Under the pieces are notes generated by a model that ran no database searches, was not told the origin of the DNA, and worked only from the letters and a program-made list of their open reading frames with translations. A DNA stretch of 64,000 bases from Leucoraja ocellata (Eukaryota), in the NCBI GenBank assembly GCA_036785375.1, contig JAWMAR010000188.1, positions 3,286,001-3,350,000 on the forward strand. Reading direction: 5' to 3'. The position numbers were made by a program, and so were the translations under genes. Each line of letters starts with the position of its first letter. Position 1 is the first letter of the stretch. This document shows, in pieces, positions 40,001-59,791 of this stretch.

Positions 40001-42785
40001 TCATTTCGATTCAATTTTTCCGATCTGTGGATACAAGCGATTTTGTAAATTAAAAACTTGAAGGACGAGAAGTGGGATAAGCAAATTTCTATATCATAGG
40101 TTCATACAGAATGGAAACCACCCCTTTTGCCCATAACTCTAAACCTTTCCTATCCTATGTGTGGAGAGAAGATAGAGGCTGAAGTATACTGGACTATTCT
40201 TCAAAGATGGATTTATAATTAAGACAGATATTGATTGAAAAAAATACTGTAACCATTTTGGTACTTTTTGCAAACTGGGCATAAAATACCCGTGAATTAT
40301 GATTCATATTCCTTTCAGCTTCCTGCATTGAACACTACCTTGAACAGTGTTAAAAACATGACAGGTCTGTACCCACTAGTACTGTAGACTAGTGTTATAT
40401 AGCCACATACAGTCCATTATGTTGGGGACAAAGACCCATCATTTATATATTTGCCTCTGTACTCCACAATTTGAGATTTGTAAGAGAAAAAATCACGTGG
40501 TTAAAGTGCACATTGTCAGATTTTAATAAAGGCCGTTTTTATACATTTTGGTTTCACCAAATAGAAATTACAGCAGTGTTTATACATAGTCCCCCCCCCC
40601 CCCCCCATTTCAGGGCACCATAATTTTTGGGACACAGCAATGTCATGTAAATGAAAGTAGTCATGTTTAGTATTTTGTTGCATATCCTTTGCATGCAATG
40701 AGTTCTTGATGCCTGTGATTCATGGACATCACGAGTTGCTGGGTGTCTTCTCTGGTGATGCTCTGCCAGGCCTGTATTGCAGCCCTTTAGCTTATTGGTT
40801 GTTTTGGGGGCTAGTCCCCTTCAGTTTTCTCTTCAGCATATAAAAGGCATGCTAAATTGGGTTCAGATCGGGTGACTGACATGGCCACTCACGAATTGAC
40901 CATTTTTTAGCTTTGAAAAACTCCTTTGTTGCTTTAGTCGTATGTTTGGGATTATTGTCTTGCTGTAGAATGAACTGCCGGCCAATGAGTTTTGAGGCAT
41001 TTGTTTGAACTTGAGCAGATAGGATGTGTCTATACACTTCAGAATTCATTATGCCACTACCATCAGCAGTTGTATCATCAATGAAGATAAGTGAGCCAGT
41101 ATCTTCAACAGCCATACATGCTCAGGCCATAACACCACTGTGTTTCACAGACAAGGTGGTATGCTTTGGATCTTGGGCAGTTGTTCTCCATACTTTGCTC
41201 TTGCCATCACTCTGATATGTTAATCTTCATCTTATCTGTCCACAAGACATTTTTCCAGAACTGTGGTTGCTCTTTTAAGTACTTCTTGGCAAACTAACCT
41301 GGCCATCCTATTTTTGCGGCTAACCAGTGGTTTGCATCTTGCAGTGTAGCCTCTGTATTTCTATTCATGAAGTCTTCTGCAGACAGTGGTCATTGACAAA
41401 TCCACACCAGATTTATTAATTTCACTGCACTTTATTGTGTACGTGACGAATAAATCTGACTTTTGACGATTGACTCCTGAAGAGTGTTTCTGATCTGTTG
41501 GACAGGTGTTTGGGGTTTTTGCTTTATTATAGGGAGAATTCTTCTGTCATCAGCTGTGGAGATCTTCCTTGGCCTGCCAGTCCCTTTGGGATTAGTAAAC
41601 TCACCAGTGCTCTCTTTCTTCTTAATGATATTCCAAACAGTTGATTTTGGTAAGCATAAAGTTTGGCTGATGTCTCCACCAGTTTTATTCTTGTTTCTCT
41701 GTCTCATAATGGCTTCTTTGACTTTCATTGGCGCAACTTTCCTCGTGTTGATAAACAGCAATGAAAGTTCCCAAAGGTGATGGAAAGACTGGAGGAAAGA
41801 CTAGGTGCTGAGAGCTCTCTTATGCCTGCATTAAGGAGGCAATTAACAGATCTGAGCAATTACAACACCCGTGAAGCCATGTGTCCCAAACATTATGGTG
41901 CCCTGAAATGGGGGGGGGGGGGGGGACTATATATAAACACAGCTGTAATTTCTATATGGTGAAACCAAAATGTATAAAAATTGCCTTTATTAAAATCTGA
42001 CAATGTGCATTTTAACCACGTGATTGTTTTTAATAACAAATCTCAAATTGTAGCATACAGAGGTAAATAAATAAATGATGGGTCTTTGTCCCAAACATTA
42101 TGGAGGGCACTATACTTGTACCCTCCAATATTATATCCATTTGTACTGGATGTTTAGACATATATTTGACATTTACAAACGGATGTCCGCCAATACAGTA
42201 CATCTAGGCAGAAAGATCGATGTGAACCTTGATTTGGATTGTTGTCCAGTTTATTAGATTGGCCTAACATGGCCCCTTCACTTGTGGTCCCTACACATAT
42301 ATGGGTCTCTGGTCCAGAGTGGACCATAAGGCCCATGTGTATAAGCTAGCCTGTGAGTTTAATGATCATCAAACCCAGAGTCAGTTCAATAAATTGTATT
42401 ATTGAAAGTAAGATTTCATATTTCTTTTTCCATAGTAAGGTATTTAAAAATATTTCTAAATAGCAATATTTATTTTTATGTTTGCTGCAATATGGTTCAT
42501 GGGCTTTGCAATTATTTTTAGACATTCTTCAAAATGTTTGGGCTTGAAATGCCATATCTTTTTGTTTCTTCATTCATTACGTTCAGTATAATTAAAGAAG
42601 CTATGACATAGAAGTATTAGCTTGTTTCCTTTTGACACGGTTTCTACTTCTGTTTGGTCCAGGCTGCATTGATCATGCAGGTTCTCCAGTTAACTCCGGA
42701 ACAGATCGCCATGCTACCGCCAGAACAGAGACAGAGCATCCTTATCCTGAAAGAACAGATTCAAAAATCTGCAGGAGCTCCTTGA
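864..42785 (+). CDS. CSTF2: Cleavage stimulation factor subunit 2 (CstF-64), 3' portion of a multi-exon gene; RRM/hinge exons lie upstream of the window
   Basis: Phase-compatible exons 864-1044, 5522-5584, (11924-11980), 23030-23171, 24563-24855, (29096-29236), 33254-33516, 39779-39862, 42663-42785. They translate to CstF-64 hallmarks: [43 protein letters not shown] and the C-terminal [40 protein letters not shown]. Confidence 0.97.
1290..1920 (+). mobile_element. Degenerate CR1 LINE ORF2 3' fragment
   Basis: ORF 1396-1731: [27 protein letters not shown]. Confidence 0.85.
2756..4274 (+). mobile_element. Non-autonomous Tc1/mariner-superfamily (pogo/Tigger-like) DNA element, copy 1, GC-rich interior (orientation arbitrary)
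   Basis: TIRs CAGGTGCAC(C/A)ACCTTTTATCCGAA...TTCGGATAAAAGGTTGTGCACCTG, flanked by TA on both sides; internal direct and inverted duplications; no transposase. Confidence 0.85.
5050..5330 (-). mobile_element. CR1 LINE 3' fragment
   Basis: [11 protein letters not shown]...[15 protein letters not shown]. Confidence 0.85.
5522..5584 (+). CDS. CSTF2: CSTF2 63-nt exon (exon 8 equivalent): [21 protein letters not shown]
   Basis: ttcccacag acceptor, AAG|GTATTG donor, phase 1-1; resembles mammalian GGMQAQVGMPGSGPVSMERGQ. Confidence 0.9.
6560..7370 (+). mobile_element. Old degenerate Penelope-like fragment
   Basis: C-rich strand with remnants resembling the 63640-64000 GIY-YIG region (cattttaattccct...ctgtctgtcctg...atgaacattaaattctc). 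Confidence 0.5.
7681..9411 (-). mobile_element. Same non-autonomous DNA element, copy 2, inverted relative to copy 1, inserted in a TA/TG microsatellite
   Basis: Same TIRs and TA flanks; near-identical mirrored ORFs in the track (2569- vs 9194+, 3813+ vs 7930-). Confidence 0.85.
7783..7850 (+). pseudogene. tRNA-Met(CAT)-derived segment inside the DNA element (mirror copy ~4105-4172, - strand)
   Basis: GGCTGGGTCAGTGGTAGAGTGCTCGGCT-CAT-ATCCGCAAGGTCGCGAGTTTGCGCCTCGATCCCGGCA: A-box-like D arm, CT-CAT-AT loop, T arm CGAG/CTCG with degenerate B box; no intact acceptor stem. Confidence 0.55.
9908..10034. repeat. Penelope-terminus-derived fold-back mini-element with a degenerate hammerhead core
   Basis: TAGACACAAAATGCTGGAGTAACTCAGCG ... 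CGCTGAGTTATTCCAGCATTTTGTGTCTA inverted arms; internal CTGCAGA..GAAACGTC. Confidence 0.65.
10248..11388. mobile_element. Unclassified non-autonomous TIR element with GC-rich core
   Basis: Perfect 15-bp inverted repeat CGAGTTTGGTATTCC (10255-10269 / 11367-11381), extendable to about 22 bp; the core resembles the 2756-4274 interior. Confidence 0.55.
11924..11980 (+). CDS. CSTF2: CSTF2 57-nt cassette exon (exon 8.1-like): [19 protein letters not shown]
   Basis: ttctcacag acceptor, AAG|GTACCA donor, phase 1-1; shares the GNM start and RGQ end with exon 5522-5584. Confidence 0.8.
12780..13465 (+). mobile_element. Degenerate CR1 LINE 3' region, interrupted by a Tc1 element
   Basis: KCEMLHFG and [10 protein letters not shown] remnants; the CR1 3' end resumes after 14832. 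Confidence 0.75.
13467..14830 (+). mobile_element. Tc1 transposon (internally deleted, defective transposase)
   Basis: TA-flanked CAGTGCCCTCCATAA...TTATGGAGGGTACTG long TIRs; HTH fragment [12 protein letters not shown], and [32 protein letters not shown]. Confidence 0.93.
15090..16300 (-). mobile_element. CR1 ORF1 (esterase-like) remnant, interrupted by an L2 3' end
   Basis: [20 protein letters not shown] and [10 protein letters not shown] fragments. Confidence 0.65.
15275..15780 (+). mobile_element. L2-clade LINE 3' end
   Basis: [21 protein letters not shown]...[18 protein letters not shown]...LKTHLF, then AATAAA and an (ATT)n tail. Confidence 0.8.
16821..20667. repeat. Local duplications of CR1-derived blocks: 16821-17429 ~ 19441-20050 and ~19180-19440 ~ 20413-20667
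   Basis: Direct sequence match; duplicated ORFs in the track (16932+/19541+, 19028-/20286-). Confidence 0.85.
17709..18440 (+). mobile_element. Non-autonomous Helitron-like element, 5' portion, with a 44-bp minisatellite (18095-18238, about 3.3 copies)
   Basis: A|TCTATATTACTAAAA start; shares blocks (GGCCACGCCCCTT..GGGACTATAAAACCC, CTGAGCTGTGAATA) with the hairpin+CTAG-terminated element at 38062-38953. Confidence 0.6.
23030..23171 (+). CDS. CSTF2: CSTF2 142-nt exon (exon 9 equivalent): [13 protein letters not shown]...TGEVEPR
   Basis: ccctttcag acceptor, AAG|GTAAGT donor; conserved [26 protein letters not shown]. Confidence 0.96.
24205..24522 (+). mobile_element. Helitron-like 3' end
   Basis: GGGACCCAATTGGTCCC hairpin (24495-24511), then ACTTGGT-CTAG|T; preceded by (CCTCTCTGTGT)n simple repeats. 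Confidence 0.7.
24563..24855 (+). CDS. CSTF2: CSTF2 exon (exon 10 equivalent): [18 protein letters not shown]...(xGEPRGP)7...HESR
   Basis: gtgtttcag acceptor; open frame; ends at AG|GCAAGT, a GC donor in phase 1 that matches the next exon. Confidence 0.9.
26200..26330. repeat. GA-rich polypurine low-complexity tract
   Basis: Direct reading. Confidence 0.9.
26600..27950 (+). mobile_element. Highly degenerate Gypsy-like pol remnant (tentative)
   Basis: Only scattered RT/integrase-like peptides (FTFLG, AEDGL); no intact ORF. Confidence 0.3.
29096..29236 (+). CDS. CSTF2: Candidate alternative CSTF2 exon: [47 protein letters not shown]
   Basis: ttgcttcctag acceptor, G|GTGAGA donor, 141 nt, phase 1-1, stop-free, with three DPR motifs like the flanking exons. 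Confidence 0.65.
30563..30788. mobile_element. PIF/Harbinger-type MITE
   Basis: TIR AGGGCCTGTCCCACTTTCAC...GTGAAAGTGGGACAGGCCCT with TTA on both sides. Confidence 0.85.
31500..32870 (-). mobile_element. Degenerate Gypsy-like RNase H/integrase remnant
   Basis: [29 protein letters not shown] and SDYGFKA resemble integrase and RNase H motifs. Confidence 0.4.
33254..33516 (+). CDS. CSTF2: CSTF2 exon (exon 11 equivalent): [18 protein letters not shown](GP)14[11 protein letters not shown]...PPRQ
   Basis: gtgcctag acceptor, CAG|GTAAGA donor; RDPRGID and GPVPNPRGP motifs. Confidence 0.93.
33682..35240 (-). mobile_element. Tc1 transposon of a second family, fragmented by CR1 pieces
   Basis: TA|CAGTGCATTCAGAAAGTATTCAGACCCC terminus with an internal direct repeat (AAGTATTCAGACCC at ~33881); transposase [15 protein letters not shown]...[28 protein letters not shown]. 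Confidence 0.9.
35240..37590 (+). mobile_element. CR1 LINE ORF2 (reverse transcriptase) with stops/frameshifts and 3' tail; internal duplication ~36772-36907 / ~37084-37218
   Basis: [38 protein letters not shown]; (TTCTATG)n tail at ~37578-37592. Confidence 0.95.
37594..38953 (+). mobile_element. Two tandem Helitron-like units (3' ends at 38061 and 38953) with CT-rich tract and 19-bp and 30-bp tandem repeats
   Basis: CAGACCC-AAC-GGGTCTG...CTAG|T (38033-38061) and GGGACCC-AAC-GGGTCCC...CTAG|T (38926-38953); GAGCTGCCTTGCCTAATTA repeats at ~38298-38365. Confidence 0.7.
38955..39510 (-). mobile_element. CR1 LINE ORF2 fragment
   Basis: [28 protein letters not shown]. Confidence 0.9.
39779..39862 (+). 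CDS. CSTF2: CSTF2 exon (exon 12 equivalent): [28 protein letters not shown]
   Basis: tttgtcag acceptor, AAG|GTTTGG donor, 84 nt, phase 0-0. Confidence 0.93.
40410..42112 (-). mobile_element. Tc1 transposon, near full length, defective; same family as 13467-14830
   Basis: Long TIRs ending TTATGGAGGGCACT(A), TA flanks; [35 protein letters not shown]. Confidence 0.93.
42663..42785 (+). CDS. CSTF2: CSTF2 last coding exon (C-terminal domain) ending in TGA
   Basis: [40 protein letters not shown]; G|GTAAAT donor 1 nt after the stop suggests an intron in the 3'UTR. Confidence 0.97.
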   Translation, partial: AALIMQVLQLTPEQIAMLPPEQRQSILILKEQIQKSAGAP

Positions 42786-42820: not shown

Positions 42821-43020
42821 NNNNNNNNNNNNNNNNNNNNNNNNNNNNNNNNNNNNNNNNNNNNNNNNNNNNNNNNNNNNNNNNNNNNNNNNNNNNNNNN
42901 NNNNNNNNNNNNNNNNNNNNNNNNNNNNNNNNNNNNNNNNNNNNNNNNNNNNNNNNNNNNNNNNNNNNNNNNNNNNNNNNNNNNNNNNNNNNNNNNNNNN
43001 NNNNNNNNNNNNNNNNNNNN
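42821..43020. other. Assembly gap (200 N)
   Basis: Run of N; the round size suggests a placeholder length. Confidence 0.99.
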
Positions 43021-45770: not shown

Positions 45771-46589
45771 CTCAACCTTACTGTAGGATTGAGTTACTGT
45801 AGATGTTGAGTTAGATGCATCTTAGTTATGCCCAGGTGATGATCATCAATAATTGTGAGAACATTTCTCATCATGTTATCACACTTCGTAAAATTTTAAT
45901 ATAAGAAGTATTGAATTAAATTGTTGAAAAGACCTGTATGTCCCTAAAAGATTATTGGTTTACATGATTATGTAGAAAGAATATAGTTTGAATTCAGAGA
46001 CGAAAGCATCCTATCAATGAAACATTAAAGAATGAGACCTCCTGTGACTTTGGAATTAATTCTGAGTCAAGACAAATTTATCAAAGAAACTATGTAGAAC
46101 TAAACTTTTTGGAATTTCTGAACTCGTTATCTGTACCACACAAAATTAAATAAAATTGCAATGTAAAATGTATGTAATTCTAGGCACAGTCCAAAGATTG
46201 CTTCCAAAGTGTCTAGTTCCTAGTGTCTAAGTTCCTAGTTCCTTTCACCACAGAATATTAACTACATCATTTATAGCATTCTCAAAATATATATTGGCAG
46301 GAAATTAATACAACAGCAACTTTTCCACTGATTTGATGTTTTAATAAAAAGACACCGAAAAAACGGTTTTGGGAATTTAAGTAACTGTCGACAATCTTGG
46401 CTTCAACTGAGTGCTTGGCCATGTGCAAGAATCAATGATAAATATTATTCTAGATATTATTCATTCCCTGTTTGATGGCCATAGTTGTATGCTTGCCACT
46501 GGTTTACTCTTCCAATTGTATTCAAGTAATATGATCATTAGTTATTTAAATATTGCTCCTGTTTCAATATTATTTTGTTGGTCCTTTAG

Positions 46590-46795
46590 CTGCCATGATA
46601 GAACAAACAGCATCTTCCGATTTGATAGACTCCAGTCCAGCATCTTGTGATCTGAGTTTCATGGAGGCTATCAGTCAGAAAATGAGAATTCTAATAGACT
46701 GAAAGTAACTGAGAGGCCAGGAGATGAAGAGAGAGCAGAAGATATTCAGATGTCGACATTACATATGCAGATTCCTGAAAGAATATCAATGGGAG
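46590..46795 (+). CDS. MFF-like first coding exon (ATG 46595, GCCATG context) with the two N-terminal repeat motifs; apparent frameshift at 46691-46692
   Basis: cctttag acceptor; MIEQTASSDLIDSSPASCDLSFMEAISQKMRI, then in a shifted frame NRLKVTERPGDEERAEDIQMSTLHMQIPERISMG; G|GTAAAC donor. Confidence 0.82.
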
Positions 46796-49700
46796 GTAAA
46801 CTGTTTCAATGTGAATTAACCAGGTATGTAAAAATCAATGGATATTTAGTCATTTTCAAGTATTGGTCCAGATCTTGTTTTAATGTCAGTTAAATAACTA
46901 ATTGATAGGGATTAAATTAAAAAATGAATTTATTCTAATAGAACATAGAGTACAAAATAGGCTTATTTGATCCAGATAAGTTCCCCCAGATGAATTACCT
47001 CCCAACTCTCTCGTCATCTAAAAAACATTAGCATAACTTTTCATTTCCTTCTTGATCATTTATGTCATTTCTTCTTTATAGAATTCATGCTATGAGCTCT
47101 ATTGTTCCTTTATTTTTATTTATTTTATTTCCTTTATTTTAAAAACATTGGTAAACCTAACTATTAATTCAAGAAATAATTATATATCTCAGAGTAGGTC
47201 AAGATTCAAGATTCAATTTATTTGTCAGGTACTGCGTTGTGGCTATATCATGTCGGCGTATGGCGCTGGTGATCTGGTTATGGCTCTAGAAAGCATCTGC
47301 AGTTCAGGGACTTTATCTTGACTAAATGTCGTACCCATTATCCTTTTTCTATACACAATTGACGACTTGATTGTAATCATCCATTGTCTTTCCTTGGATA
47401 GCATGCAAACAAAAGCTTTCACTGTATCTTTGTAGACATGACAATAATAAACTAAACTAAACTAAACTTTGGCTCAGAATGGATGAGCTAGAGTCCAAAG
47501 CTTTGACAATGAGATCCAAGAAAGATGGAGAACTGGACACCTTGCTCCAGAAGGCAGTTAGATCTTTTAGGTTAACGGCATGGTTAGCAGACAGAAATCA
47601 TGAGAAGCCCGATGGAACCCTGTAGTAGTATTGGAAGAGCCTAAGCCATACATTTCCATGAGCAATGAGGTTATTGGAACCTATGTAGACAAGAGCAGTT
47701 CTCCAGGGAAAATAAGCAAATGGACCACAGCACGGTAGCGCAACAAATGACTTGATGTGATACTTTTGAGGATATCTCATGGAGGATATCTCATTGCTGA
47801 CAAAATTATGGATTTAGGGTGTCTTCTTTCAAGTTTTTTCATTGAGACTGTTTGCTGTACTGATGGTCATTAAGGATCCTCTTTGCCTTCTTCAAAGGAA
47901 GGGGAGTTCATCACAATTTATATTATTTATCCTTGGATGAATTTAAAAACAAATATTTTAATCATATTTACATTAGCATGTGTGGGAACATGGTGACGGA
48001 TTATAGTCAAAAATAGAATTAATTGGCTGTAAGGGTCTTTGGCATCCAATGCTGAAAAATGCCGTACAAATGCATTTCTTTTAAGATATTAATATAAAGA
48101 GCCATAATTCCTTCTATCAGTTGCAAGTATTTGTACTTTGCGGAAGATAAATGATTATAGAATATGCAAAGATCTATTTCAGATTTTAGTAGTTCTGTAA
48201 ATAGATAGATCTGATGGTATAATTTGCCGTAAATTATGAGATGCTATTTTATAGAACAGTTTATTCTGGTGAGACCTTAAATATTTATTGCTGTTAACAA
48301 GGTAATTGTGCAGATTGGACATGAAAATGTTCTACTCTGATTTAAAAGGATCACGCACGAAGTACTGGTTTTCTTGTATCATATTTTTGACACTTGGAAT
48401 TGATATGCAATAGATATGCAGTAGCTACATGATTATTTGAATTTTGTAACTGAATACTAATAGGGGACAACAATAAATTATTTAAATTGCAATATTTGTT
48501 GGTTGGTTTAAAAGAAATGCTCTTTTCTCTTTAGAAACCGAAATGCAGGATATTGGAGCAAGGCCGTACTTGTATGGTTGGTTCCACAATAATCCTATGA
48601 ATACAGATCCTCCACCACTTAGCATATCTCCTCACTTAATGTATGGAACCTCCCAGGCTATGAATGTGGATAGATCGGAAAGTCCACTGCAGGTATATTA
48701 GGAATAACATTATGTCCTTTTATAATATAAAGATTTAAGTAGACAAACTCACTAACTTTTTACCTTTACACCACATAATGTGTTTTGAAATTCAGTTATA
48801 TAACACAGTTTTTTGTCTCTTTTTTCCATGGCGTGAAATCACTATCTTCCATCCTTGGAACTTATGAACCTATTTTAACTATCTCTGATGCTGTTATTGA
48901 GCCTCCAAAGTCCAGGTTCTGACCTGCACTTAGTCACTGATCACTCAATCCTCTCAAACCTACAATTCCTCATAGTGACCGATCCATGACTGCAATCCTG
49001 GGCCATCTTTCCTGATTCTCAGCTGCAGCCATTATTTCATACCCCAATGCCCAGATACAGGCCAATTCTTTTACGCACTGTGGGTGGGGGGAGAAATATT
49101 CTTGAATTCTCACTAGTTCAGTCTGCTGCCTGAAAAAAAGTTGTGTTGGTTGTTGACCCACAAAGTAAAAAACTGAATGTGATGTTCATTGAAATACAAT
49201 TTAATACAGACATTTTTGCACAGTGTTCCTTTAAAGTAGTTTAACATACAAAATTGCACACTACTAAATTAATAAATTAATCCATTCTGTATTTATCCAG
49301 ATATTTCAAATATTCAATGTTAACATAAGTTCATCATTGGGAAGGCCTGTATTTATGTCACTGATAATTTGGGTGCCTTCTACATTTAAATTAACTCATC
49401 AGTAAGAAACATGCTTGCAAACTTTTTTTGCAGGTGACCACCTCTCACAATTCCAGCAGATCACGAACATTAAGTGAGAATGAAATCAGTCTATCAAATG
49501 TGGCTAAAAGACAGAGGAATTTGTAAGTAAGACATTTTGGATTGGTTTGATTGTAGTGATATCAAGTACAAACTACTGCAAAAAATGTTGCCATATTCAG
49601 TTACTGAGATGGATTTCAGCTACTTGAAGGAATATTTAACTAAATGATAGTCCCTGAGGAATGTTTATGCCATTTTTTGGGATTGCAAGAGCTAGATGAA

Positions 49701-52700
49701 CATCATATCCTTCTCTTTACCTGTAGATCATTTCTACATGAGTCATTCTTAAGATCTATATACAGCAAACCCATGTTTTAACAGACCTCTTTATTTATCA
49801 CGGATTTTGGTTATAGCGGATTGACATACCAACCGCTGCCCATGTCACCTCTGACTCACGTCATCTCCTCGGCAACTTACAGTACCGGCTGCTGACCTTA
49901 CCTGCATTCCAGCAGTTGACCATTGACTCTGCCGATCCTCACCACTCCCCCGGCTGCCAGGGTCACCAACTCACCTGTATTCTAGGCCCAATTCCAGACA
50001 AGGGTCTGAAGAAAGGTCTTGCCCTGAAACATCACCTATCTATTTTCTCGAAAGATGTTGCCTGACCTGCTGAGTTACTCCAGCACTTTTGTGTCCACAA
50101 GCAACTGTAGTTGTTTGTTTCTACTACTTAGGCAATGATAAAACCTTCCTCGTTTATTGTGGACAATCAGCAGTTACGGACACCATTACACTCCCCCCCC
50201 CCCCCCCCCCCCCCAATGGTCTGTTATAATGAGGGTTTATTGTACAGGTTAATGATACTATCAGATTATGAAATCAAGCATGAATGAAAGTGGCAAAAAT
50301 TATAATATAAAATTTGCCATTCTTTGTCTATTTTCTGGGAACTAACATCATGAGCTGGATGGTCCATAAACCAGAGAGGATTCAAATAATATTGCCTTTT
50401 CATTACATTTAGTATGAGAGGCTCGTGAAATGTTTAAATCTTTGCATATCGTAAATAAAAAATCCATACTAACTTGTCTCCAAAGTTCATGTAATAAACT
50501 GACAGTAACTATCATCCCAAGTTTTATAGCTGGGTTTAGAGATGAACTGTTAATTTTTAAGGTATTTTGTGAAAAATATTTTGGAAAAAATATTTTGGAA
50601 ATTCCAGCAATTTTCATATCTTGTTGAAATTTGTAACAGCTTTGAACTAAACTAATTTAGACAGCTTTGAACTAAAATGGTGGAAACCCAAAGCCAAGCA
50701 CCCTCTGCATTTTTTCAGTGATTACTTTAGAAGTGCTAAAGAATAGCAAGTAAATGTAATATCGCCAATGAAAATATATGGAAAAAAACATACCATTATT
50801 ATTTTTCAATTATATCCATTTTGACACCTATAATGCTAGAAAGAGAGTGAATGAGATGAAAATATACTTTGAACCAGATTCAGTATCATGCCAATTATTA
50901 TGTTCTGAGTATCACTCTTGCTCTTTTTACCAACATTCATTAACGCTATGTTTCATATTTCCAGCTGATTTCTTTTTTGCAATTGTAGAATGTGATAGCA
51001 ATAATAATTTGAATAAGGTACTTGTGTTAAATCATGCTGCATTGCGTTGGGGTGTGTGGGTGGGTGTGTGTGTTTGCTTGTGTGTGCAACTTCCAACTCG
51101 CATGTCTGCTGGAAAAATCGGGGAAATTTTCTATGGGCTTGAGAGTGAAAAAGAGTGATTGACAGGAAAGTAAAAATGTAAATGTCTACTTGTTTTAGAA
51201 GAAAATAAATATTTCAAATGGCAGATTTCTCTGACTTTGAATGCAAAATAAAATTCTCAGATATCAGAGAAACTGATTTGCCCAAATTTCTGCCTGTTGA
51301 ATAATCTGTGACATCTGTAGAAGATCCTTTTAAAAATAAGTTGAATTAAAAATTAGTGGAACAATTGAATTCTGTGGGCTTGTAATATTTAAATCGCTGT
51401 GACTACTGGGTAGCCAATTTATATATTTTCCACTTTCAGAAATCGGTTCCATAATCAGCCCCTTTCTGGCAGCCTACACTCAGATGTGACTAATCAAACA
51501 AGGAATCAAAGGTGCTTGGCATACTATCTTCCTTGATGAAATCACTTATGTGCTAATCATTTTATTCTTGTGTTCTAAACGTTTTATTTCTAGCATTTTA
51601 CACCAGTCTGGGTGAATAATGTAGACATATTACAGCCAGATTGGTCTAAGATTTAGAAACAGTTTTTCACTGTATCTCGGTATATGTGACATTCAGAAAC
51701 CAATGCCAACACTTATACCAGATGCTGCTTCAATTCAATCAGTGAAATTTCTGTGGGACATTTGTATGCTGTCCAAAATGGATTAAGGATGACTGAAAAT
51801 CATGTGAAATTGCAAGTATCCACTTGCTTTAGAGGGAAATAAATGATGGAATCAAGGTTAAGCATTATATATATATTTTGCGAATTAGTCAAAATGAAGG
51901 AAAGAGATCTGTTCCCCTTTCAGTTTTCTGCTTTATTTCATGCTTGCTTCCTCCTCAGGTTTACTGCTTTTGCCTCCAACCCATTTTAATTTTATTCTGA
52001 ACTCCAACCTCTAGTTTCTTGCTGGCTACATTGTGACCTTGGTCTCGACTCAGGTACAGGTCCTTGCGGCATCATGCTCTTGAATTTGGAACATTTTGCC
52101 AAAGTTTCTTATCTGATGAATCCTTTATCAATTTCAAAATCTTTACAAACCTACCACCGTGGCCAAGCTCTTAGTTCTTCAGATTTGCTTTTCCCACACG
52201 TACATTACAACTTAATCTGTTCCTCATTGATCTATTCTTGGTACTCACTTTTTCTCGACTGGGTGCAGCCTTCTTCCACCCGAAGATATCAACTACAGCT
52301 ATCTCCATGCTTCTCTAGTGAACTCCTTATGGCCCAATGAAGCAGTGTGGTCATTGCTGAATGCTAGCACTCAAGGTTTAGATTTTGCTTCCTGAGCCAG
52401 CATCTGGTTTAACCTGGCTTAAGTGTAGAAAATGAATTTGAATGAATGCGACACATTCATCACTAGGCGAAAGGGAAGTAATTTTATTACTTATATGTAT
52501 TACAGATTTGTAATGTGTAGATTAATTTTAATAGTTTAATATGTGTACCAAAATATGTATTATTGAATATTTGTGAGTGTCTAATACTTCCACAAACATT
52601 CAGTTGCTCTGACTGCATGAACCAATTTGCAACCTGAGTTGGGTGGCAAAGACTAAATGGCCAATAAAAGTTGAGTCTCGTTAGTTACATGTGCTGAGTC

Positions 52701-55700
52701 AATGCATTTGCTGCACATGGCAAAGACAATGCTAAGGGTTGGAATTCTTGAGTTGAAGAGTGAAGTGCATATGGGTGATAGAAGATCAGCTCCAATTGTT
52801 GATGATGATTTGGTTAATGGCCAAGTCAGCGATGTTGTGCTGAATGAGGAGTTGCAGGAAGGATGAAGAAACATTTCAGAGGTGATAATTTTCAGACACC
52901 GTGGAGAGCAAAGTGGTTAGAGATGAAGTGGTTTGGAACAGAGAAAGACAATTTTTTTTTGAGTCAGCTAATGGATATTTTGAAAGAGGGCGTTTAGTAC
53001 CAGATTACATGGGGCTAAGAAGAAATTGTAGTTATTAGCAAATAAGTGTCATTGATCAATTGGGCTTATTGAGAATGGGATAAAAGGAGAGAAACAAAAG
53101 AAATATGGATTTGAAAATGAGGCCAAGGAAGCCTGGGACGGATCAAACCACTTGCCTGGTAAGGGGAAGCAGCCGAGGCAGGCAAGTTGATGCTCACATA
53201 CTTTGTGAGAAAGTAGTTGTAATGTTATAATTGTGAAGATGACGGACTGCGGGGGTGATGCGCCGTTGTGTATGGCTGCTCCTCCTGCAGTCCGTCCTTT
53301 CTCCCTTTTTTATTTTTATTTTTAGTCCTGTCCGTGAAAATTGTTCATTGGAAGTCTTCTTTTATGTGGTGGGTGGGGGGGGGGAGAAGGGGGAAACTGT
53401 TTTAATCCCAGTCCTACCTGGTCAGAGATGCGGTTTTCTTCCGAACCGCTTCTTCGTCCTCTCTGTGCGGCCTACCATCGAGCTGGAGCAGTGCTGGAGC
53501 GACGATTTCCTGCCGGGGCTACAGCTTCGCTGGCGGTGCAGATGCTGGGACACCAACACCAACACGGAGCGGGCGATGCCTTACCGGGTCGCCTTCCGGT
53601 AAGCTCCGGGGCACTGGGAACGCCGACTGCAACATCGCTGAGCTGCGGCTGCGGAGCGTCCAGCCGCGGGCGGGCGGCACTGGATTTCAACGCCGCGGGG
53701 CCTGGTGTCCGAGTTCGCCGGTGTCAGAGGTCCAGCCAGCGCGGCCTGAGAACTTTGGACATTGCAGTCTTCAGGGAGGAAGCGGCCGCTTCAGTCCAGG
53801 CCGCTGAAGAATGTTCACCCGACGCCGATGATCCAGCTTCGTGGCAGAGGGCCTGAGAACATCGACTTGGCTGAGGAGTCCGCATATACACCCCGACCTC
53901 GGGTGGACTATGAGGGGGAGAACTGGATATTTTTAGTGCCTTCCCTCACAGTGAATTCTGCTGTGGGGGGACGTTTCATGTTGATTTCTATAGTGTACTG
54001 TTCTGTGTCTTTTTTTCTTTTTCTCTTTTTTGTTTTGTATGGATTTATTGACATTTGATCTGTTCAATTAATTTAATCAATCTCTGTAAAGCTCTTTGGT
54101 TCAAATACTGGTTTTGTTGAAAAGTGCTATATAAATAAACATTATTATTACAATGGAGGAAAAGGCAATCTGGCCCATTGAGTCTGCAATGGCATTTTGT
54201 GAAAGCAATTCAATTAGTCCCATTCCGACTCTTTCTCTGTAGCCCTACATTTTTCTCTTCAAGTAATTAACAAATTCTTCTTTTAAAATCACATTGAAAT
54301 GCTTCCTGTTGCTTTCCGGCACTTGCTTCATGAAAAATATTTTCCTCTTTTTATCTTTATGGGCCTGTCCAACTTGGCGATTTTTTAGGCAACTGCCGGC
54401 GACGGTCAGAGTTGTAGCGGGTCACCGAAAAACCGGCGACAACCTACGACAGCACCTACGTCAGGAGAAGTCAAGCTACGCTCATTGACGTCAAACCCAC
54501 TGTCGCCGAATATTTTTCAACATTTTGAATATTTAGCAGCGATCAGAAAAACGCTACGACTTTTTGCGCGACTGAGGAGACCACCAGCGAACATGTGGCG
54601 ACAAACAGCCTGTAGTTGCCTGACAAATCACATGTGGGACAGGCCCATTTGGATCTCGACCAATTGCCTTAAATCGGACTTCTGTAAACTTACTTGTTGT
54701 GACACAGAAGGGAAGTATATTGTCCATTGGGTCCATGCTAGCTCCCAGCAGAGCAGTACCATTGGTCCCATTCTGCCTTTTATTTATCTTGTTTCCCTGC
54801 AACTTATTTTCTTCCAAATGACAATCAATGCTCGTTTGAATCATTTGTCCTGCACTAAGGACAATCTATTGTTTAAAATGGAACCATCCAAGGAGAATTT
54901 ACAAAAACCAGGCAGACAGTCCCTCAGAGCAGGACTGAGGTGGCTCAAGCTGTGATGCAGCCATCAGTGTGCTGCCATCAGTGTGCTGTTTGTCTTTGTG
55001 ATTGCAAATAGTTCCTCTTTATTCACATTGTTGAATGTTATATGAATTTTAAAACTGTTGGCATATCATGTTTCAGCTTCTTCTGGTTCTAGGTAGATCA
55101 ACCTCACCTTGTCTGATCTATTCATTAGACTAAAGTTCCTCAACCATGGCACCATTATGGTAAATCTTTACTGCACTATTGCTAAGGCTTTTATAGTGTC
55201 ATGCATTAAAATGGACACCATATTCCTGAATTTGTATTCCAAAAAGATTTGCTTTTCTTTTTGTTTAAGAAGGAACGGCTGATGCTGGAAAATCGAGGGT
55301 AGACAAAAATGCTGGAGAAACTCAGCGGGTGAGGCAGCATCTATGGAGCGAAGGAAATAGGCAACCTTTTGGGACGAAACCCTTCTTTTCTTTTAACTCT
55401 TTCTAAAGCTCAAGATCCTGAATATCTTTCTAACCACTTTCTCTTCTGCCTAGCCATCAAGGATTAGTTCTTAATTATCCACAATTCTTCCTATAACCAT
55501 ATATAACCATATAACAATGACAGCACGGAAACAGGCCATCTCGGCCCTACAAGTCCGTGCCGAACAAATTTTTTTTCCCCCCTTAGTCCCACTTGCCTGC
55601 ACTCATACCATAACCCTCCATTCCCTTCTCATCCATATGCCTATCCAATTTTATTTTTAAATGATACCAATGAACCTGCCTCCACCACTTCCACTGGAAG

Positions 55701-56689
55701 CTCATTCCACACCGCTACCACTCTCTGAGTAAAGAAGTTCCCCCTCATATTACCCCTAAACTTCTGTCCCTTAATTCTGAAGTCATGTCCTCTTGTTTGA
55801 ATCTTCCCTATTCTCAAAGGGAAAAGCTTGTCCACATCAACTCTGTCTATCCCTCTCATCATTTTAAAGACCTCTATCAAGTCCCCCCTTAACCTTCTGC
55901 GCTCCAGAGAATAAAGACCTAACTTATTCAACCTATCTCTGTAACTTAGTTGTTGAAACCCAGGCTTTTTGGAACCCATTTTGGATATTGTGGATATTTT
56001 GGATATTTGGAATCCTTTTTGGAACCCATTTTGATATTGCATTCATATTATGTCTTCTCAATAAACCTATCAAAATATATTTCACACTTCTCATCAGTGA
56101 TGGAAATGGGTTTTAAGAACTAGGGATACCCTAAGGTCCGTGAGGTCATACCCAAGTAAGAGTACAAGAATGCAGAACTTGTTTATTGTGTATTTATAAT
56201 ATAGTTAGTTCATTGTGTATTGTATGTCATAGCTGCTTTAGTATCTTTGATCTGCAGTTCCTTCCTATTGAAGAAGAACCCTGGCCCGAAACAACTCCTA
56301 ATCCATTCCCTCCACAGATGCCGCCTAACCCGCTGAGTTCCTCCAGCACTCTGTGTTTTTTTATTTAACTCTTGAAATTGAAGTTAGACAAAGCTGGAGT
56401 AACTCAGCGGGACAGGCAGCAACTCTGGAGAGAAGACCCTCTTTAGACTGAACTGAACTCTCGTCGGTGAGAGTACTTGTGATTGTTTGCAGAAGGGTCT
56501 CGAGCTGAAACGCCACCCACTCCCCAGAGCCGCCGCCCGTCCCGCTGAGCTACCCCAGCCCTCTCGTGTCCACCTTCAACTCCAGAGCCAAACAAAAAAC
56601 ACAGAGTGCTGGAGGAACTGAGCGGGCCAGGCGGCACCCGCGGAGGGATCGGACCAGGAGCAGCTGCAGGCCAGGGTTGCACCAATCGC

Positions 56690-56748
<59 letters not shown>

Positions 56749-59700
56749 GAGCGAGCGGACAGACGGACAAAATCAGCCATCACAGAACGGAATAGGTGAC
56801 ATTTCATCTCGACACCCTTCTTCACACTGACAGCCAAGGGAAAAGGAAACGGGAAATATAGGCATATCTTCCATTCATTTGGCCTTAGTACCGTCTATAT
56901 CTCTTGTTCCTCTTTCCGCTGACTCCGTGTGAAGAAGGGTCTCGACCCAAAATGTTATCTATTCCGCTCTATGATCGTTGCTTTCATCCGTCTGTTCGCT
57001 CGCCCCTGGATTAAGTAGCGCAGGATAAAGCTGCGATTTCATGCCCAGGATGGAAACTGGACACTGAAAAGTAGGGGAATGCCGTCCCCCAGCGTACCCC
57101 CCCAGTTCCATCACTGCTTCTCACCATTAGATTTCATCTGATGTGTGCCTGGTACAATTCTTGATATCTACCACTATCCTTCTCACTCTCTTCCATTCTT
57201 TTTCTTATCTACAGATTTTGAGTTTGTATGGTGAACACTCAACTCCAAGCTATTGATATATGTCAAGAAAAATATTGGTCCCAGCACTGGCTCCTCAGGA
57301 ATTGCCATTGCATATTTTTCTCCAGATTAAAATATGTTTTATTCGTAATATTAATTACTCCCTTAAGCTAATTTCATATCCATACTTTGTCCTTTGTATT
57401 CCATTGCCTTTTTGTTGGTAATCAGCTATGTAGAACTTTGAAAATCCATGTTTCCAAAAAAAAATGTTTTGCCTTAGTCAACCCTCTCTGAATAACTCGA
57501 GCTTTAGCCTAACATCGTTGATCTTTATTGAATCTTTAATGGCTGTCTTTATCTTAATATCACGTTAATTTTGCACCATATTACTGCATAAAGACACTTC
57601 CAGACCATTAAGGTTAAACTGATAGCTTGTCAGTGCATGATTTTTGCTTCCATTCTTTCTTGAACAAGAGTAACATTTCTAATTTTCCTATCTTGGCCCC
57701 AACACAGTATTTGAGGAAAAATCTTAGAATTATTCTCCATAATTTTCATCCTTATTCCCTTCAGCAATCTAGGTTGCACTGCATCCACACCGAAACGGTA
57801 GTCAGCCAGTATTATTTTCCCATTTTTGCCTATCCTGTATTTCAGCTTTCACTGTGACTTTGTTTTGATCTTCTGTCTTGGTAATGACTTGCAAGGGTAT
57901 TCATAATTTCCTCATGTTGATGCATAGCACTTTTTTTGATCTTATAGGCCCTTACGGAAACATTTTGCAGTAGGCATTATACGGCGATTATCCCCGTATA
58001 AACATGGATTATCTTTGCTTTTCAAATTGACCGTCACCTGAGATGGACCAATCATTAAGCACTTCATGCTGAATCTGGTTGGGGATGCTTTATCCTTGTC
58101 TTTGAGGATAGAATCTTTTCACCATTCATGAATAGATGCGGCAAGACTACAAAATTTGGATATGATTTGTTATTTTCAAGCAGAGTCAGGGTTGCACTCC
58201 TTTTTCTATTTAGAACACAAATATTCCTGTGTTTCAGCATCAGGTTGGCATCTAATTGTTAGATCCTCCCCCTGCTGCATCCAGCATGTTCTTTAATTCA
58301 CTTCAGTGAACTAGGCTTGATGGGCTGGCTTGATAATGATATTAAAGTGAGGTGTATGCAAGCCCATATGGTTGCCGACTATGGTGGTGTGCCTTTCTAA
58401 TGTTGCTTATGTTCTACAGTGTCTCATCATTGTACAATTAAGAACTGGAACATTTCTTATGAACAAATCTCATTTAGCATGATTGCAGTTCCACAAACCA
58501 CAGTGAAGGGTGTCCTAATTGTGAAAATTGAACTGTGTCTCCACATAACTGTCATGTATGGCAACAGTGAGATTAATGATAACACTGTAAATCTGAAATA
58601 AAAAACAAAATTATAACAATCAGGTAGTTTAGTAATGTAATTTACAAAATGAAATTAAATGTACACTCCTCAGCTGCTATGGGAGGGAATTTTGAACTTG
58701 CTGCTGGAGTGATAGTCCAGGCCTCTGTGTTTTTAGTGTGGTAATTTAACCATTACATGACATCTCTTTTCTAAATAAGTATATGTTTTATTTAAGTGTG
58801 ATTAAATAATACAAGATGTAGCGAATGGCTTTTTTTGTAGTTATCATGCTGCTATTATCCTCCAGGACTGAAATCTGAAGAATTCTGTTCAGTGTGATTA
58901 AAATATTGATACTGTTATCAGTGGGACAAGAGGAAGGATAAAAATGACTTGCTTGAATTTGTATTTTTTATTTTCCAGTGTGGCCCCTGATTACACTATA
59001 CCCGAGGGTGTGCTTGAAAATTTCAGTGTAATGGAAATTGTAACACTCCGACGACAGGTAAGAATTTCAATAAGGAGCATTTACAAGAGGATTTACAAGA
59101 GGAATCATCACTGAGTCCTTGGTTTATATGTTTTAATTATATAATAAATGTATTAATTGCATTCAATTCCTAATAATTTACTTAAATAAATTTCAACTTT
59201 TAAAATGTTTCTGATTATCAGAAACATCGAAATATGATAAAAACTGAACAGCTTGGTGAGCCTCCGGATGTGATGCCTTGAGGCTTAGTCACTCACTGGT
59301 CACAGAACGGCTGCAGCATTGAAGCCTTGAGCTTGTTTCCAGAGCTGGTGGTCAAAATGTTGGTGTGGTCTCAAACCTCGCATAGGCAATAGATCATGTT
59401 GAGCATAATTTAGCCTCTTACCTGACCAGCAGCTCACTATTTGGAACATTTTATGCTGCATAACTGAAGATATTAGAGCTGTTGTACACTATCCTGCCTG
59501 TTACAATTTCAAAGCAAATTGCTCCTTGATAATTCATTTCATGAAGTTATATCTTTCATTTGATTTAAAATAACAAGAAATAAGTTATTTTAATACTGCT
59601 GTAATTTTGTATTAGTGTACAGTTCTATCAGTGAATAGTCCAAACTTTTTATTTTGTAGTTGAACAAGTTGAATCGCCGCCTACAGTTATTAGAACAGGA

Positions 59701-59791
59701 GAGTCGGGACCATGCACGAAAAGAATTTGTTCTCTATTCCATCATCTTTGCTGCCTGTTTGGTCAACAGTTGGCTCTGGCTGAGGAAGTGA
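46595..59791 (+). CDS. Mitochondrial fission factor-like (MFF/FATE1, Miff family) tail-anchored protein; 6 coding exons, about 243 aa if a 1-nt frameshift at ~46691 is repaired
   Basis: Exons 46595-46795, 48535-48692, 49434-49522, 51440-51511, 58979-59057, 59660-59791, all AG/GT and phase-compatible. Motifs: EAISQKMRI(P)NRLKV, MQIPERI, RSRTLSENE, LRRQ|LNKLNRRLQLLEQE coiled coil, and the C-terminal TM FVLYSIIFAACLVNSWLWLRK*. Confidence 0.88.
48535..48692 (+). CDS. MFF-like exon: ETEMQDIGARPYLYGWFHNNPMNTDPPPLSISPHLMYGTSQAMNVDRSESPLQ
   Basis: ttctctttag acceptor, CAG|GTATAT donor, phase 1 to 0, stop-free. Confidence 0.75.
49434..49522 (+). CDS. MFF-like exon: VTTSHNSSRSRTLSENEISLSNVAKRQRNL
   Basis: ttttttgcag acceptor, GTAAGT donor, phase 0 to 2; RSRTLSEN resembles MFF RERSMSEN. 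Confidence 0.82.
49763..50242. mobile_element. Tigger/pogo-like MITE with a nested Penelope-terminus fragment
   Basis: TA-flanked imperfect TIRs CAGCAAACCCATGTTTTAACAGACC / GGTCTGTTATAATGAGGGTTTATTG. Confidence 0.55.
51440..51511 (+). CDS. MFF-like 72-nt symmetric (possibly cassette) exon: NRFHNQPLSGSLHSDVTNQTRNQ
   Basis: ccactttcag acceptor, weak AG|GTGCTT donor, phase 2-2, stop-free. Confidence 0.55.
53235..54150 (+). mobile_element. Unclassified GC-rich retroposon-like insertion with AATAAA and (ATT)n tail
   Basis: Abrupt CpG-rich block ending ...AATAAACATTATTATTA; the ORFs have no recognisable domain. Confidence 0.5.
54360..54647. mobile_element. PIF/Harbinger-type MITE related to 30563-30788
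   Basis: TGGGCCTGTCCAAC...GTGGGACAGGCCCA termini. Confidence 0.7.
55490..55965 (-). mobile_element. CR1 LINE 3' end
   Basis: LGLYSLERRRLRGDLIEVFK...FFTQRVVAVWNELP; (TATAACCATA)n tail. Confidence 0.9.
56692..56746. repeat. (GT)n microsatellite preceded by CGCGCG
   Basis: About 27 uninterrupted GT units. Confidence 0.97.
58979..59057 (+). CDS. MFF-like exon: VAPDYTIPEGVLENFSVMEIVTLRRQ
   Basis: ttttccag acceptor, CAG|GTAAGA donor; ends in LRRQ like the penultimate MFF exon. Confidence 0.88.
59660..59791 (+). CDS. MFF-like last exon: coiled coil plus C-terminal transmembrane anchor
   Basis: LNKLNRRLQLLEQESRDHARKEFVLYSIIFAACLVNSWLWLRK*; ttttgtag acceptor. Confidence 0.93.
   Translation: MNKLNRRLQLLEQESRDHARKEFVLYSIIFAACLVNSWLWLRK

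What the first reader, a model, noticed from the sequence alone, without database searches (positions are those of the whole stretch)
46595..59791. Hidden divergent MFF paralogue (candidate FATE1-lineage ohnologue) that keeps the Drp1-recruiting repeats
Seen: six phase-compatible exons, none in the ORF track, give a ~243-aa tail-anchored protein with MFF architecture: two N-terminal repeats (I[P]NRLKVT, IPERISMG), RSRTLSEN, a coiled coil and a TM ending WLWLRK. Known: MFF recruits Drp1 through its VPEKLKVA/VPERIVVA repeats and is strongly conserved. Its mammalian X-linked relative FATE1 shares mainly the C-terminal part, and CSTF2 is also X-linked in mammals. Inference: the divergence (roughly 25/43 identities to human MFF in the last exon, from memory) is too high for a true MFF orthologue. 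It may be the X-paralogon copy and an intermediate between MFF and FATE1, i.e. a second, possibly tissue-restricted mitochondrial fission adaptor in cartilaginous fish.
Basis: partly seen in the sequence, partly recalled or inferred. Interest (0 to 1): 0.8.

Follow-up and report, generated by a model that had tools for sequence, protein, structure and literature searches.

The report
Skate FATE1 orthologue keeps Drp1 repeats
This is a real, spliced skate gene, the fish counterpart of the human cancer-testis gene FATE1, which still carries the two motifs that its sister gene MFF uses to grab the mitochondrial fission enzyme Drp1 and so likely acts as a weaker second fission adaptor; the broken copy in this window is most likely a duplicated-haplotype assembly error.

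Summary
Observation real, with corrections. Six AG/GT exons encode a 243-aa Miff-family tail-anchored protein, but the window copy lacks one base in exon 1. An intact copy lies 168 kb upstream on the same contig. The window copy starts at a gap, repeats that region at 97-99.7%, and three read sets carry the intact letters, so it is most likely a false duplication. A separate canonical MFF sits beside COL4A. The gene's true upstream neighbour is PRRG3; CSTF2 is about 100 kb downstream. A tree puts it in one clade (100/99) with bird, reptile, marsupial and eutherian FATE1, and AU tests reject grouping with MFF. It is not specific to cartilaginous fish: 25 of 25 sampled non-therian members keep both repeats, all have lost a third motif that MFF, lampreys and invertebrates keep, and therian mammals have eroded the repeats too. 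The protein is already in RefSeq as 'MFF-like', and NCBI calls sauropsid members FATE1. I found no paper describing this stepwise decay. Drp1 binding, localisation and tissue pattern are untested.

The parts
42821..43020 (.). 200-N scaffold gap. The duplicated block that holds the window copy starts directly after it.
   Evidence: C188:3329021 onward repeats C188:3160914 onward at 96.8-99.7% up to the end of the fetched DNA (3440000)
46590..46795 (+). First coding exon (ATG at 46595, phase-1 donor). The non-coding 5' exon is absent from the window copy and lies at about C188:3160.3 kb in a CpG island.
   Evidence: (RNA-type contig X15 joins a 5' exon at 46588)
46690..46692 (+). One base missing in the window copy only, with three substitutions at 46714, 46715 and 46722; likely consensus error
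   Evidence: copy comparison; X1 and X2 carry the intact-copy letters at 7 of 7 differing sites, X15 at 4 of 4; 23 one-base indels in the first 10 kb after the gap, 1-11 in each of the next ten 10-kb bins
46682..46710 (+). Repeat R1 (residues 30-39), spanning the frameshift
   Evidence: score 27.7, within the canonical MFF range 22.5-31.6
46765..46794 (+). Repeat R2 (residues 58-67), kept but altered
   Evidence: score 14.5 against 27.2-34.7 in canonical MFF; shuffle 99th percentile 6.8
48535..48692 (+). Exon 2; equivalent of the MFF exon that carries the third conserved motif (likely R3), here lost
49434..49522 (+). Exon 3 with the RSRTLSEN motif (49458-49481), aligned to MFF RERSMSEN
51440..51511 (+). 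Exon 4 (72 nt, phase 2-2). It is absent from the 219-aa Amblyraja isoform P0002, so likely a cassette exon.
58979..59057 (+). Exon 5, start of the coiled coil
59660..59791 (+). Exon 6: coiled coil, transmembrane segment (about 59729-59782), basic LRK tail (+2), stop
   Evidence: predicted helix 191-242

Best explanation
The gene is the skate orthologue of FATE1, an MFF sister gene shared by jawed vertebrates, and its protein likely anchors by its tail in the outer mitochondrial membrane, likely oligomerises through its coiled coil and likely recruits Drp1 through its two retained repeats, though more weakly than MFF. Shown here: exon structure, splicing, the intact copy, clade membership, PRRG3 linkage, retention of R1/R2 and loss of the third motif. 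Inferred: membrane target, oligomerisation, Drp1 binding, and that the lost third motif is R3. The history read from the motif pattern is stepwise: duplication of MFF before sharks and bony fish split, loss of the third motif in the new copy, erosion of R1/R2 in therian mammals, and then the non-recruiting, fusion-promoting human FATE1. The window's own copy is most likely a second-haplotype assembly duplicate with a sequencing error, not a pseudogene. My odds: FATE1 orthology about 0.9, artefactual duplicate about 0.85, measurable Drp1 recruitment about 0.5.
For: Canonical MFF lies elsewhere, 14 kb from a COL4A gene (PMC12141075 passages place MFF 3' of COL4A3). Intron phases 1,0,2..,0 are the same in both skate genes. 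Tree of 51 rows: MFF-like plus FATE1, 31 rows, one clade at 100/99; canonical MFF 99/98. The C-terminal 62 residues alone give 85/96. AU rejects shark clade + MFF (p 0.0019) and eutherian FATE1 + MFF (p 1e-5). The upstream gene is PRRG3; PRRG3 and the paralogue have the same longest-contig length in 10 of 10 species where both lengths are given. NCBI names eagle, skink, bearded dragon and turtle members FATE1. R1 and R2 score above the shuffle 99th percentile in 25 of 25 non-therian members while the linkers diverge. R1/R2 plus the Drp1 stalk are the minimal interaction unit (PMC4666140 section 6). The tail charge is +2, as in MFF. Spliced contigs: X16 record 9 spans exons 2, 3 and 6 with 149 nt between, which equals exons 4+5; X18 record 23 joins exons 2 and 3.
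Against: The third conserved motif scores above background in 9/9 MFF, 2/2 lamprey and 9/9 invertebrate rows but in 0 of 31 FATE1-lineage rows. Truncations that removed R3 abolished recruitment of full-length Drp1 in two-hybrid tests; that R3 is this motif is my inference, as the figure was not visible. R2 scores only 12.7-23.7 against 27-35 in MFF. Human FATE1 does not bind or recruit Drp1 and promotes fusion through Mfn2 (preprint 10.1101/2025.08.18.670752, passages). The TM segment is more hydrophobic than MFF's (1.85 against 1.24-1.54), which could favour ER. Rows were found with a profile that contains the repeats, which favours repeat-bearing members. Only three eutherian rows were used, one of them a 96-aa partial. 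That human PRRG3 and FATE1 are adjacent is recalled and comes from no call.
Confidence: 0.5

Rival explanations
1. Same gene and orthology, but the protein is a brake rather than an adaptor. It would bind Drp1 or MFF without activating fission, or work at ER-mitochondria contacts through Mfn2 like human FATE1.
For: Third motif lost in 31 of 31 rows and R2 weakened. The coiled-coil core KLNRRLQLLE is identical to MFF's in cartilaginous fish, which would allow mixed oligomers. More hydrophobic TM. Human FATE1 antagonises fission.
Against: R1 is as good a match as in MFF and is kept in 25 of 25 non-therian rows, whereas human FATE1's anti-fission behaviour goes with loss of R1. The +2 tail is kept, while the three eutherian rows have +1.
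Confidence: 0.33
2. The window copy is a real tandem duplicate or a real null allele (pseudogene) carrying a frameshift.
For: The two copies differ by about 1% with many substitutions along 111 kb, so they are at least two haplotypes. The runs laid may not be the assembled individual, and contigs drop variants.
Against: The block starts exactly at an N gap. PRRG3, CSTF2, canonical MFF, COL4A and a CNG channel gene are also present twice in this assembly. One-base indels are enriched next to the gap. No contig in X1, X2 or X15 carries the window's letters. Exons 2-6 have no differences between the copies.
Confidence: 0.12
3. A duplicate of MFF specific to cartilaginous fish and unrelated to FATE1, grouped with FATE1 by long-branch attraction.
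For: The last exon is closer to MFF (25/43) than to bird, turtle or platypus FATE1 (19-20/43). The C-terminal-only tree is not starred (85/96).
Against: The higher identity reflects slow evolution in sharks. AU p 0.0019, PRRG3 linkage from sharks to caecilians, shared loss of the third motif and the shared TM signature A-C-x-x-N all point to FATE1.
Confidence: 0.05

Closest known systems
MFF (mitochondrial fission factor, Pfam PF05644 Miff)
   Same: Miff family (E 3e-31); same intron phases; R1, R2, RxRxxS-type motif, coiled coil, tail anchor with +2 tail
   Different: Only 66/213 identical to the skate's own MFF, which is 148/214 identical to horse MFF; third conserved motif lost; R2 altered; beside PRRG3 and not COL4A3
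[quoted passage not shown]
   Same: Same clade, with eutherian rows nested inside; PRRG3 neighbour; NCBI uses this name for bird and reptile members
   Different: Human FATE1 has only an R2-like motif, does not recruit Drp1 and promotes hyperfusion. The skate protein keeps R1 and R2, and its 5' exon lies in a CpG island; tissue pattern unknown.
RefSeq 'mitochondrial fission factor-like' of Leucoraja erinacea and other cartilaginous fish
   Same: 242 of 243 residues identical to P0003: the same gene, already annotated by pipeline
   Different: The annotation gives no orthology to FATE1 and no function. Other sharks and rays have an extra 52-aa cassette that was not found in skate introns 3-4.

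Membership tests
Miff family (PF05644) | Match to the Miff profile above the curated cut-off | tested here: met
   109.5 bits against cut-off 23; last exon alone 50.4 bits
Miff family (PF05644) | C-terminal coiled coil plus tail anchor | tested here: met
   Predicted helix 191-242 with pLDDT mostly 73-88, N-terminal part low confidence; hydrophobic 18-mer and +2 tail
Canonical MFF orthologue | Groups with vertebrate MFF | tested here: not met
Canonical MFF orthologue | Lies 3' of COL4A3 | tested here: not met
   That place is held by the C513/C917 gene; this gene follows PRRG3
Canonical MFF orthologue | Third conserved N-terminal motif (likely R3) | tested here: not met
   0 of 31 lineage rows against 20 of 20 others
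Drp1 receptor (works like MFF) | R1 and R2 repeats | tested here: met
   R1 27.7, R2 14.5; shuffle 99th percentiles 9.1 and 6.8
Drp1 receptor (works like MFF) | Binds and recruits Drp1; mitochondrial or peroxisomal location | not testable with these tools
FATE1 orthologue | One clade with mammalian FATE1 to the exclusion of MFF | tested here: met
   100/99; 85/96 on the C-terminus alone; AU tests
FATE1 orthologue | Position directly downstream of PRRG3 | tested here: met
   PRRG3 exons at C188:3136826-3142203, about 18 kb before the 5' exon, same strand, no Pfam-supported gene between among the ORFs scanned. The human order is recalled; PMC5757860 (one passage) only places PRRG3 and CNGA2 at Xq28.
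FATE1 orthologue | Testis-restricted expression | not testable with these tools
   Run tissues are not given
2R ohnologue of MFF | Duplication at the base of vertebrates on paralogous chromosome segments | tested here: inconclusive
   Both clades include cartilaginous and bony fish; lamprey placement not resolved (AU p 0.15-0.16 either way); neighbours resemble human X-linked genes (recalled); C188 could not be linked to COL4A5/6

The most novel reading that the evidence does not exclude
All jawed vertebrates except therian mammals carry a second, unstudied MFF-type Drp1 receptor, the ancestral FATE1. It became the anti-fission cancer-testis antigen of humans by stepwise loss of its Drp1-binding motifs: the third motif first, then R1 and R2 in therians. 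Skate, chicken, platypus and marsupial proteins would form a natural series that shows how a fission adaptor was turned into a fission antagonist.
Probability: 0.4. Interest if true: 0.65.

Novelty: new variant of a known kind. Interest (0 to 1): 0.42.

Why it matters
MFF has been listed as having no whole-genome-duplication sister (PMC3411107, one passage), and FATE1 is discussed as sharing mainly MFF's C-terminus. If the repeat-bearing form recruits Drp1, fish, frog and chick models have an overlooked fission adaptor that could mask mff knock-out phenotypes. The natural R1+R2-without-R3 design also tests what the third motif does, and the series explains the origin of human FATE1's opposite activity. 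The limits: the sequence is already in RefSeq, NCBI's naming already links bird and reptile members to FATE1, and no function is shown here.

Tried and rejected
Canonical MFF orthologue: rejected. CSTF2 adjacency as synteny evidence: rejected as a gap artefact. An alternative acceptor or start that bypasses the frameshift: not needed once reads showed the missing base. The 52-aa cassette of other sharks and rays: no hit above shuffled controls in introns 3 and 4. CNG channel (CNGA2-type) neighbour: 3 matches in the genome, none on C188. PDB sequence search: nothing significant. Atlas search: only MFF-named clusters for the protein, uninformative for the PRRG exon. AlphaFold model: mean pLDDT 55, so no fold search was run. 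Complex prediction of the two coiled coils: not run, no verdict. The 2026 RNA run X22 laid no reads (no test). No run was on record as RNA; X15-X18 are guessed RNA, and their exon-only cover and joins support that. Literature: no paper held FATE1+MFF+paralog, and none listed described FATE1 evolution or a non-mammalian MFF paralogue (listings only unless cited). Hits in PMC12828049, PMC6007259 and PMC7096497 were false matches. Held supplements of PMC13450315 and PMC4042849 had no FATE1, MFF or PRRG3, but online ohnologue and orthology databases and subscription journals were not visible and may list the pair. The AMPK-site paper could not be read, so those sites are not argued. Earlier scan findings: none.
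Full report
Observation. Six exons with AG acceptors and GT donors were defined at 46595-46795, 48535-48692, 49434-49522, 51440-51511, 58979-59057 and 59660-59791. Joined, they give 731 nt: the ATG frame stops at 46700-46702 and the repeats lie in another frame, because one base is missing at about 46690-46692. The last exon hits Pfam Miff at E 3.4e-13; the other 6 of 7 pieces scanned gave no hit.

The window copy is most likely an assembly duplicate. The window is G000:C188:3286001-3350000. A Miff search of the genome gave 11 matches at four loci: C917, C513 and two on C188. The second C188 copy (3164490-3177740) has a 202-nt first exon, 732 nt in all, no internal stop, and differs from Leucoraja erinacea MFF-like P0003 at 1 of 243 residues. 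From the first base after the N gap, the window repeats C188:3160914 onward at 96.8-99.7% for at least 111 kb. PRRG3, CSTF2, canonical MFF, COL4A and a CNG gene also occur twice in this assembly. Between 46300 and 47100 the copies differ at 7 sites; contigs of runs X1 and X2 carry the upstream copy's letters at 7 of 7, and X15 at the 4 of 4 it covers. One-base indels number 23 in the first 10 kb after the gap and 1-11 in each of the next ten bins. A private null allele is not excluded, because these runs may be other individuals.

It is transcribed and spliced. An X15 contig joins a 5' exon to position 46588. That exon maps to C188:3160331-3160352, is followed by a GT donor, lies in a CpG island (GC 0.64, CpG o/e 0.95) and is absent from the window. 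X16 record 9 covers exons 2, 3 and 6 with 149 nt between, the length of exons 4+5 less the 2 shared letters; X18 record 23 joins exons 2 and 3. X16 and X18 are of a related organism, RNA status is guessed, and tissues are not given.

It is not canonical MFF. The C917/C513 gene is 148/214 identical to horse MFF, against 66/206 for this gene. On C513 it lies 14 kb from a COL4A gene, the position given for MFF in PMC12141075 (passages). Both skate genes share intron phases 1, 0, 2 and 0.

True neighbourhood. I scanned 504 candidate ORFs from C188:2.90-3.33 Mb, chosen by a splice-site heuristic out of 1007 candidates, against Pfam. The order is: a glycosyl-hydrolase-15 gene (PHKA1-like), LEAP-2, a UBA gene, a parvulin (PIN4-like), PLA2G12, a Gla/TM gene, this gene, a C2/FYVE gene (SYTL4-like), TYW2/TRMT12, CSTF2. 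The names ending in '-like' are my reading of the domains. The Gla/TM gene is PRRG3: top hits are named TMG3 at up to 98% identity. I recall that human FATE1 lies directly after PRRG3 at Xq28; no call shows this, and one passage only lists PRRG3 and CNGA2 at Xq28. In 10 of 10 species for which both proteins have a contig length (Amblyraja, Mobula hypostoma, Scyliorhinus, Chiloscyllium plagiosum, Stegostoma, Callorhinchus, Protopterus, Rhinatrema, Amia, Erpetoichthys) the lengths are identical. This shows the same chromosome or scaffold, not adjacency. One control pair, Brachyhypopomus mffa and PRRG3, differs. CSTF2's last exon at window 42663-42785 is near only because of the gap.

Range and tree. 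A word-based search found close relatives only in cartilaginous fish. A profile search found 167 proteins, 150 listed, of which I named 30. They include MFF-like proteins of coelacanth, lungfish, caecilian, newt, sturgeon, bowfin, reedfish, teleosts, lizards and platypus, and proteins that NCBI names FATE1 in eagles, skink, bearded dragon, turtle, three marsupials and three eutherians. I built a tree from 51 chosen, mostly full-length rows (one row with an aberrant C-terminus dropped; 231 columns; LG+C20). MFF-like and FATE1 rows (31) form one clade at 100/99, with the shark clade sister to the bony vertebrates; canonical MFF (9) has 99/98. On the last 62 residues alone the clade has 85/96, and eutherians sit with marsupials and platypus. 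AU tests reject shark MFF-like + MFF (p 0.0019), eutherian FATE1 + MFF (p 1e-5) and therian FATE1 + MFF (p 2e-6), but not lamprey with either clade (p 0.15-0.16). The duplication therefore predates the shark/bony-fish split; whole-genome duplication is plausible but not shown.

Motifs. Profiles trained on MFF, lamprey and invertebrate rows were scored against 1240 shuffles. R1 and R2 exceed the 99th percentile in 25 of 25 non-therian lineage rows, in 1 and 0 of 3 marsupials and in 0 of 3 eutherians (one is a partial sequence). R1 scores like MFF's (18.9-31.6); R2 is weaker (12.7-23.7 against 27.2-34.7). A third motif of exon 2 passes in 20 of 20 MFF, lamprey and invertebrate rows and in 0 of 31 lineage rows. 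PMC4666140 (section 6 read whole) names a third conserved motif R3, reports that its deletion abolished two-hybrid recruitment of full-length Drp1, and finds R1/R2 plus the stalk to be the minimal unit once insert B is removed. I could not see its alignment figure, so equating the two motifs is inference. The rows were found with a profile that contains the repeats, which biases the counts upward.

Likely working. Shown: a disordered N-terminal part with two repeats and a long C-terminal helix (low-confidence model), a hydrophobic anchor and a +2 tail. Inferred from MFF biology: insertion in the outer mitochondrial membrane, oligomerisation through the coiled coil, and capture of oligomeric Drp1 by R1/R2. 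Long retention of R1 in a protein whose linkers drift argues that the repeats still bind something, and Drp1 is their only partner known to me. Loss of the third motif and a weaker R2 suggest lower affinity. I put measurable Drp1 recruitment at 0.5 and a brake or contact-site role like human FATE1's at 0.33. Human FATE1 has an R2-like motif only, fails to recruit Drp1 and drives Mfn2-dependent hyperfusion (bioRxiv 10.1101/2025.08.18.670752, abstract and passages).

Novelty. The protein is already annotated as MFF-like (22 of 24 hits carry NCBI or UniRef names), and NCBI's names already tie sauropsid members to FATE1. Nine literature searches returned no paper on FATE1's origin or on a repeat-bearing non-mammalian paralogue; one paper lists MFF as a non-ohnologue (PMC3411107, one passage). 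Orthology databases and journals outside the library were not visible. Verdict: a real gene, correctly guessed to be of the FATE1 lineage, much more widespread than proposed, seen here through a defective duplicate. It is of moderate interest for the stepwise loss of Drp1-binding motifs that it makes testable.

Noticed in passing
G000:C188:3099462-3124993 and 3133335-3158892: PRRG3 is also duplicated at 99.3% across a 200-N gap, the same pattern as the window copy; the assembly seems to keep both haplotypes widely.
   Followed up: partly
window 49523-51439 and 51512-58978: A 52-aa cassette present in other rays, sharks and elephant shark is not detectable in skate introns 3-4. It has an amphipathic helix like the 53-aa MFF cassette, and a similar stretch is seen in eagle and platypus members.
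   Followed up: partly
window 42663-42785: Last coding exon of CSTF2 (Pfam CSTF_C), ending 36 bases before the gap; the gene is present again around C188:3456-3461 kb.
   Followed up: yes
L028:868-8110 (C188:3260868-3268110, - strand): Multi-exon TYW2/TRMT12 between the SYTL4-like gene and CSTF2; human TRMT12 is, from memory, a single-exon gene elsewhere, so this may be the ancestral site.
   Followed up: no
L062:5195-5416 (-) and L068:596-6721 (+): A LEAP-2-type antimicrobial peptide exon and a group XII phospholipase A2 gene upstream of PRRG3, between PHKA1-like and PIN4-like genes or next to them.
   Followed up: no
L022:4502-7075 (+): 858-codon open frame with integrase domains inside the SYTL4-like gene, likely an LTR retroelement; observed only.
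   Followed up: no
proteins P0124 and P0135: Unnamed Miff proteins that fall outside both jawed-vertebrate clades on the C-terminal tree (P0135); possibly a second jawless-fish paralogue, which would bear on dating the duplication.
   Followed up: partly
window 49458-49481: RSRTLSEN aligns with MFF RERSMSEN and keeps an RxRxxS pattern in most sharks and rays and in turtle, but scores poorly in most bony-vertebrate members; kinase control of this site is recalled for MFF and not checked.
   Followed up: partly
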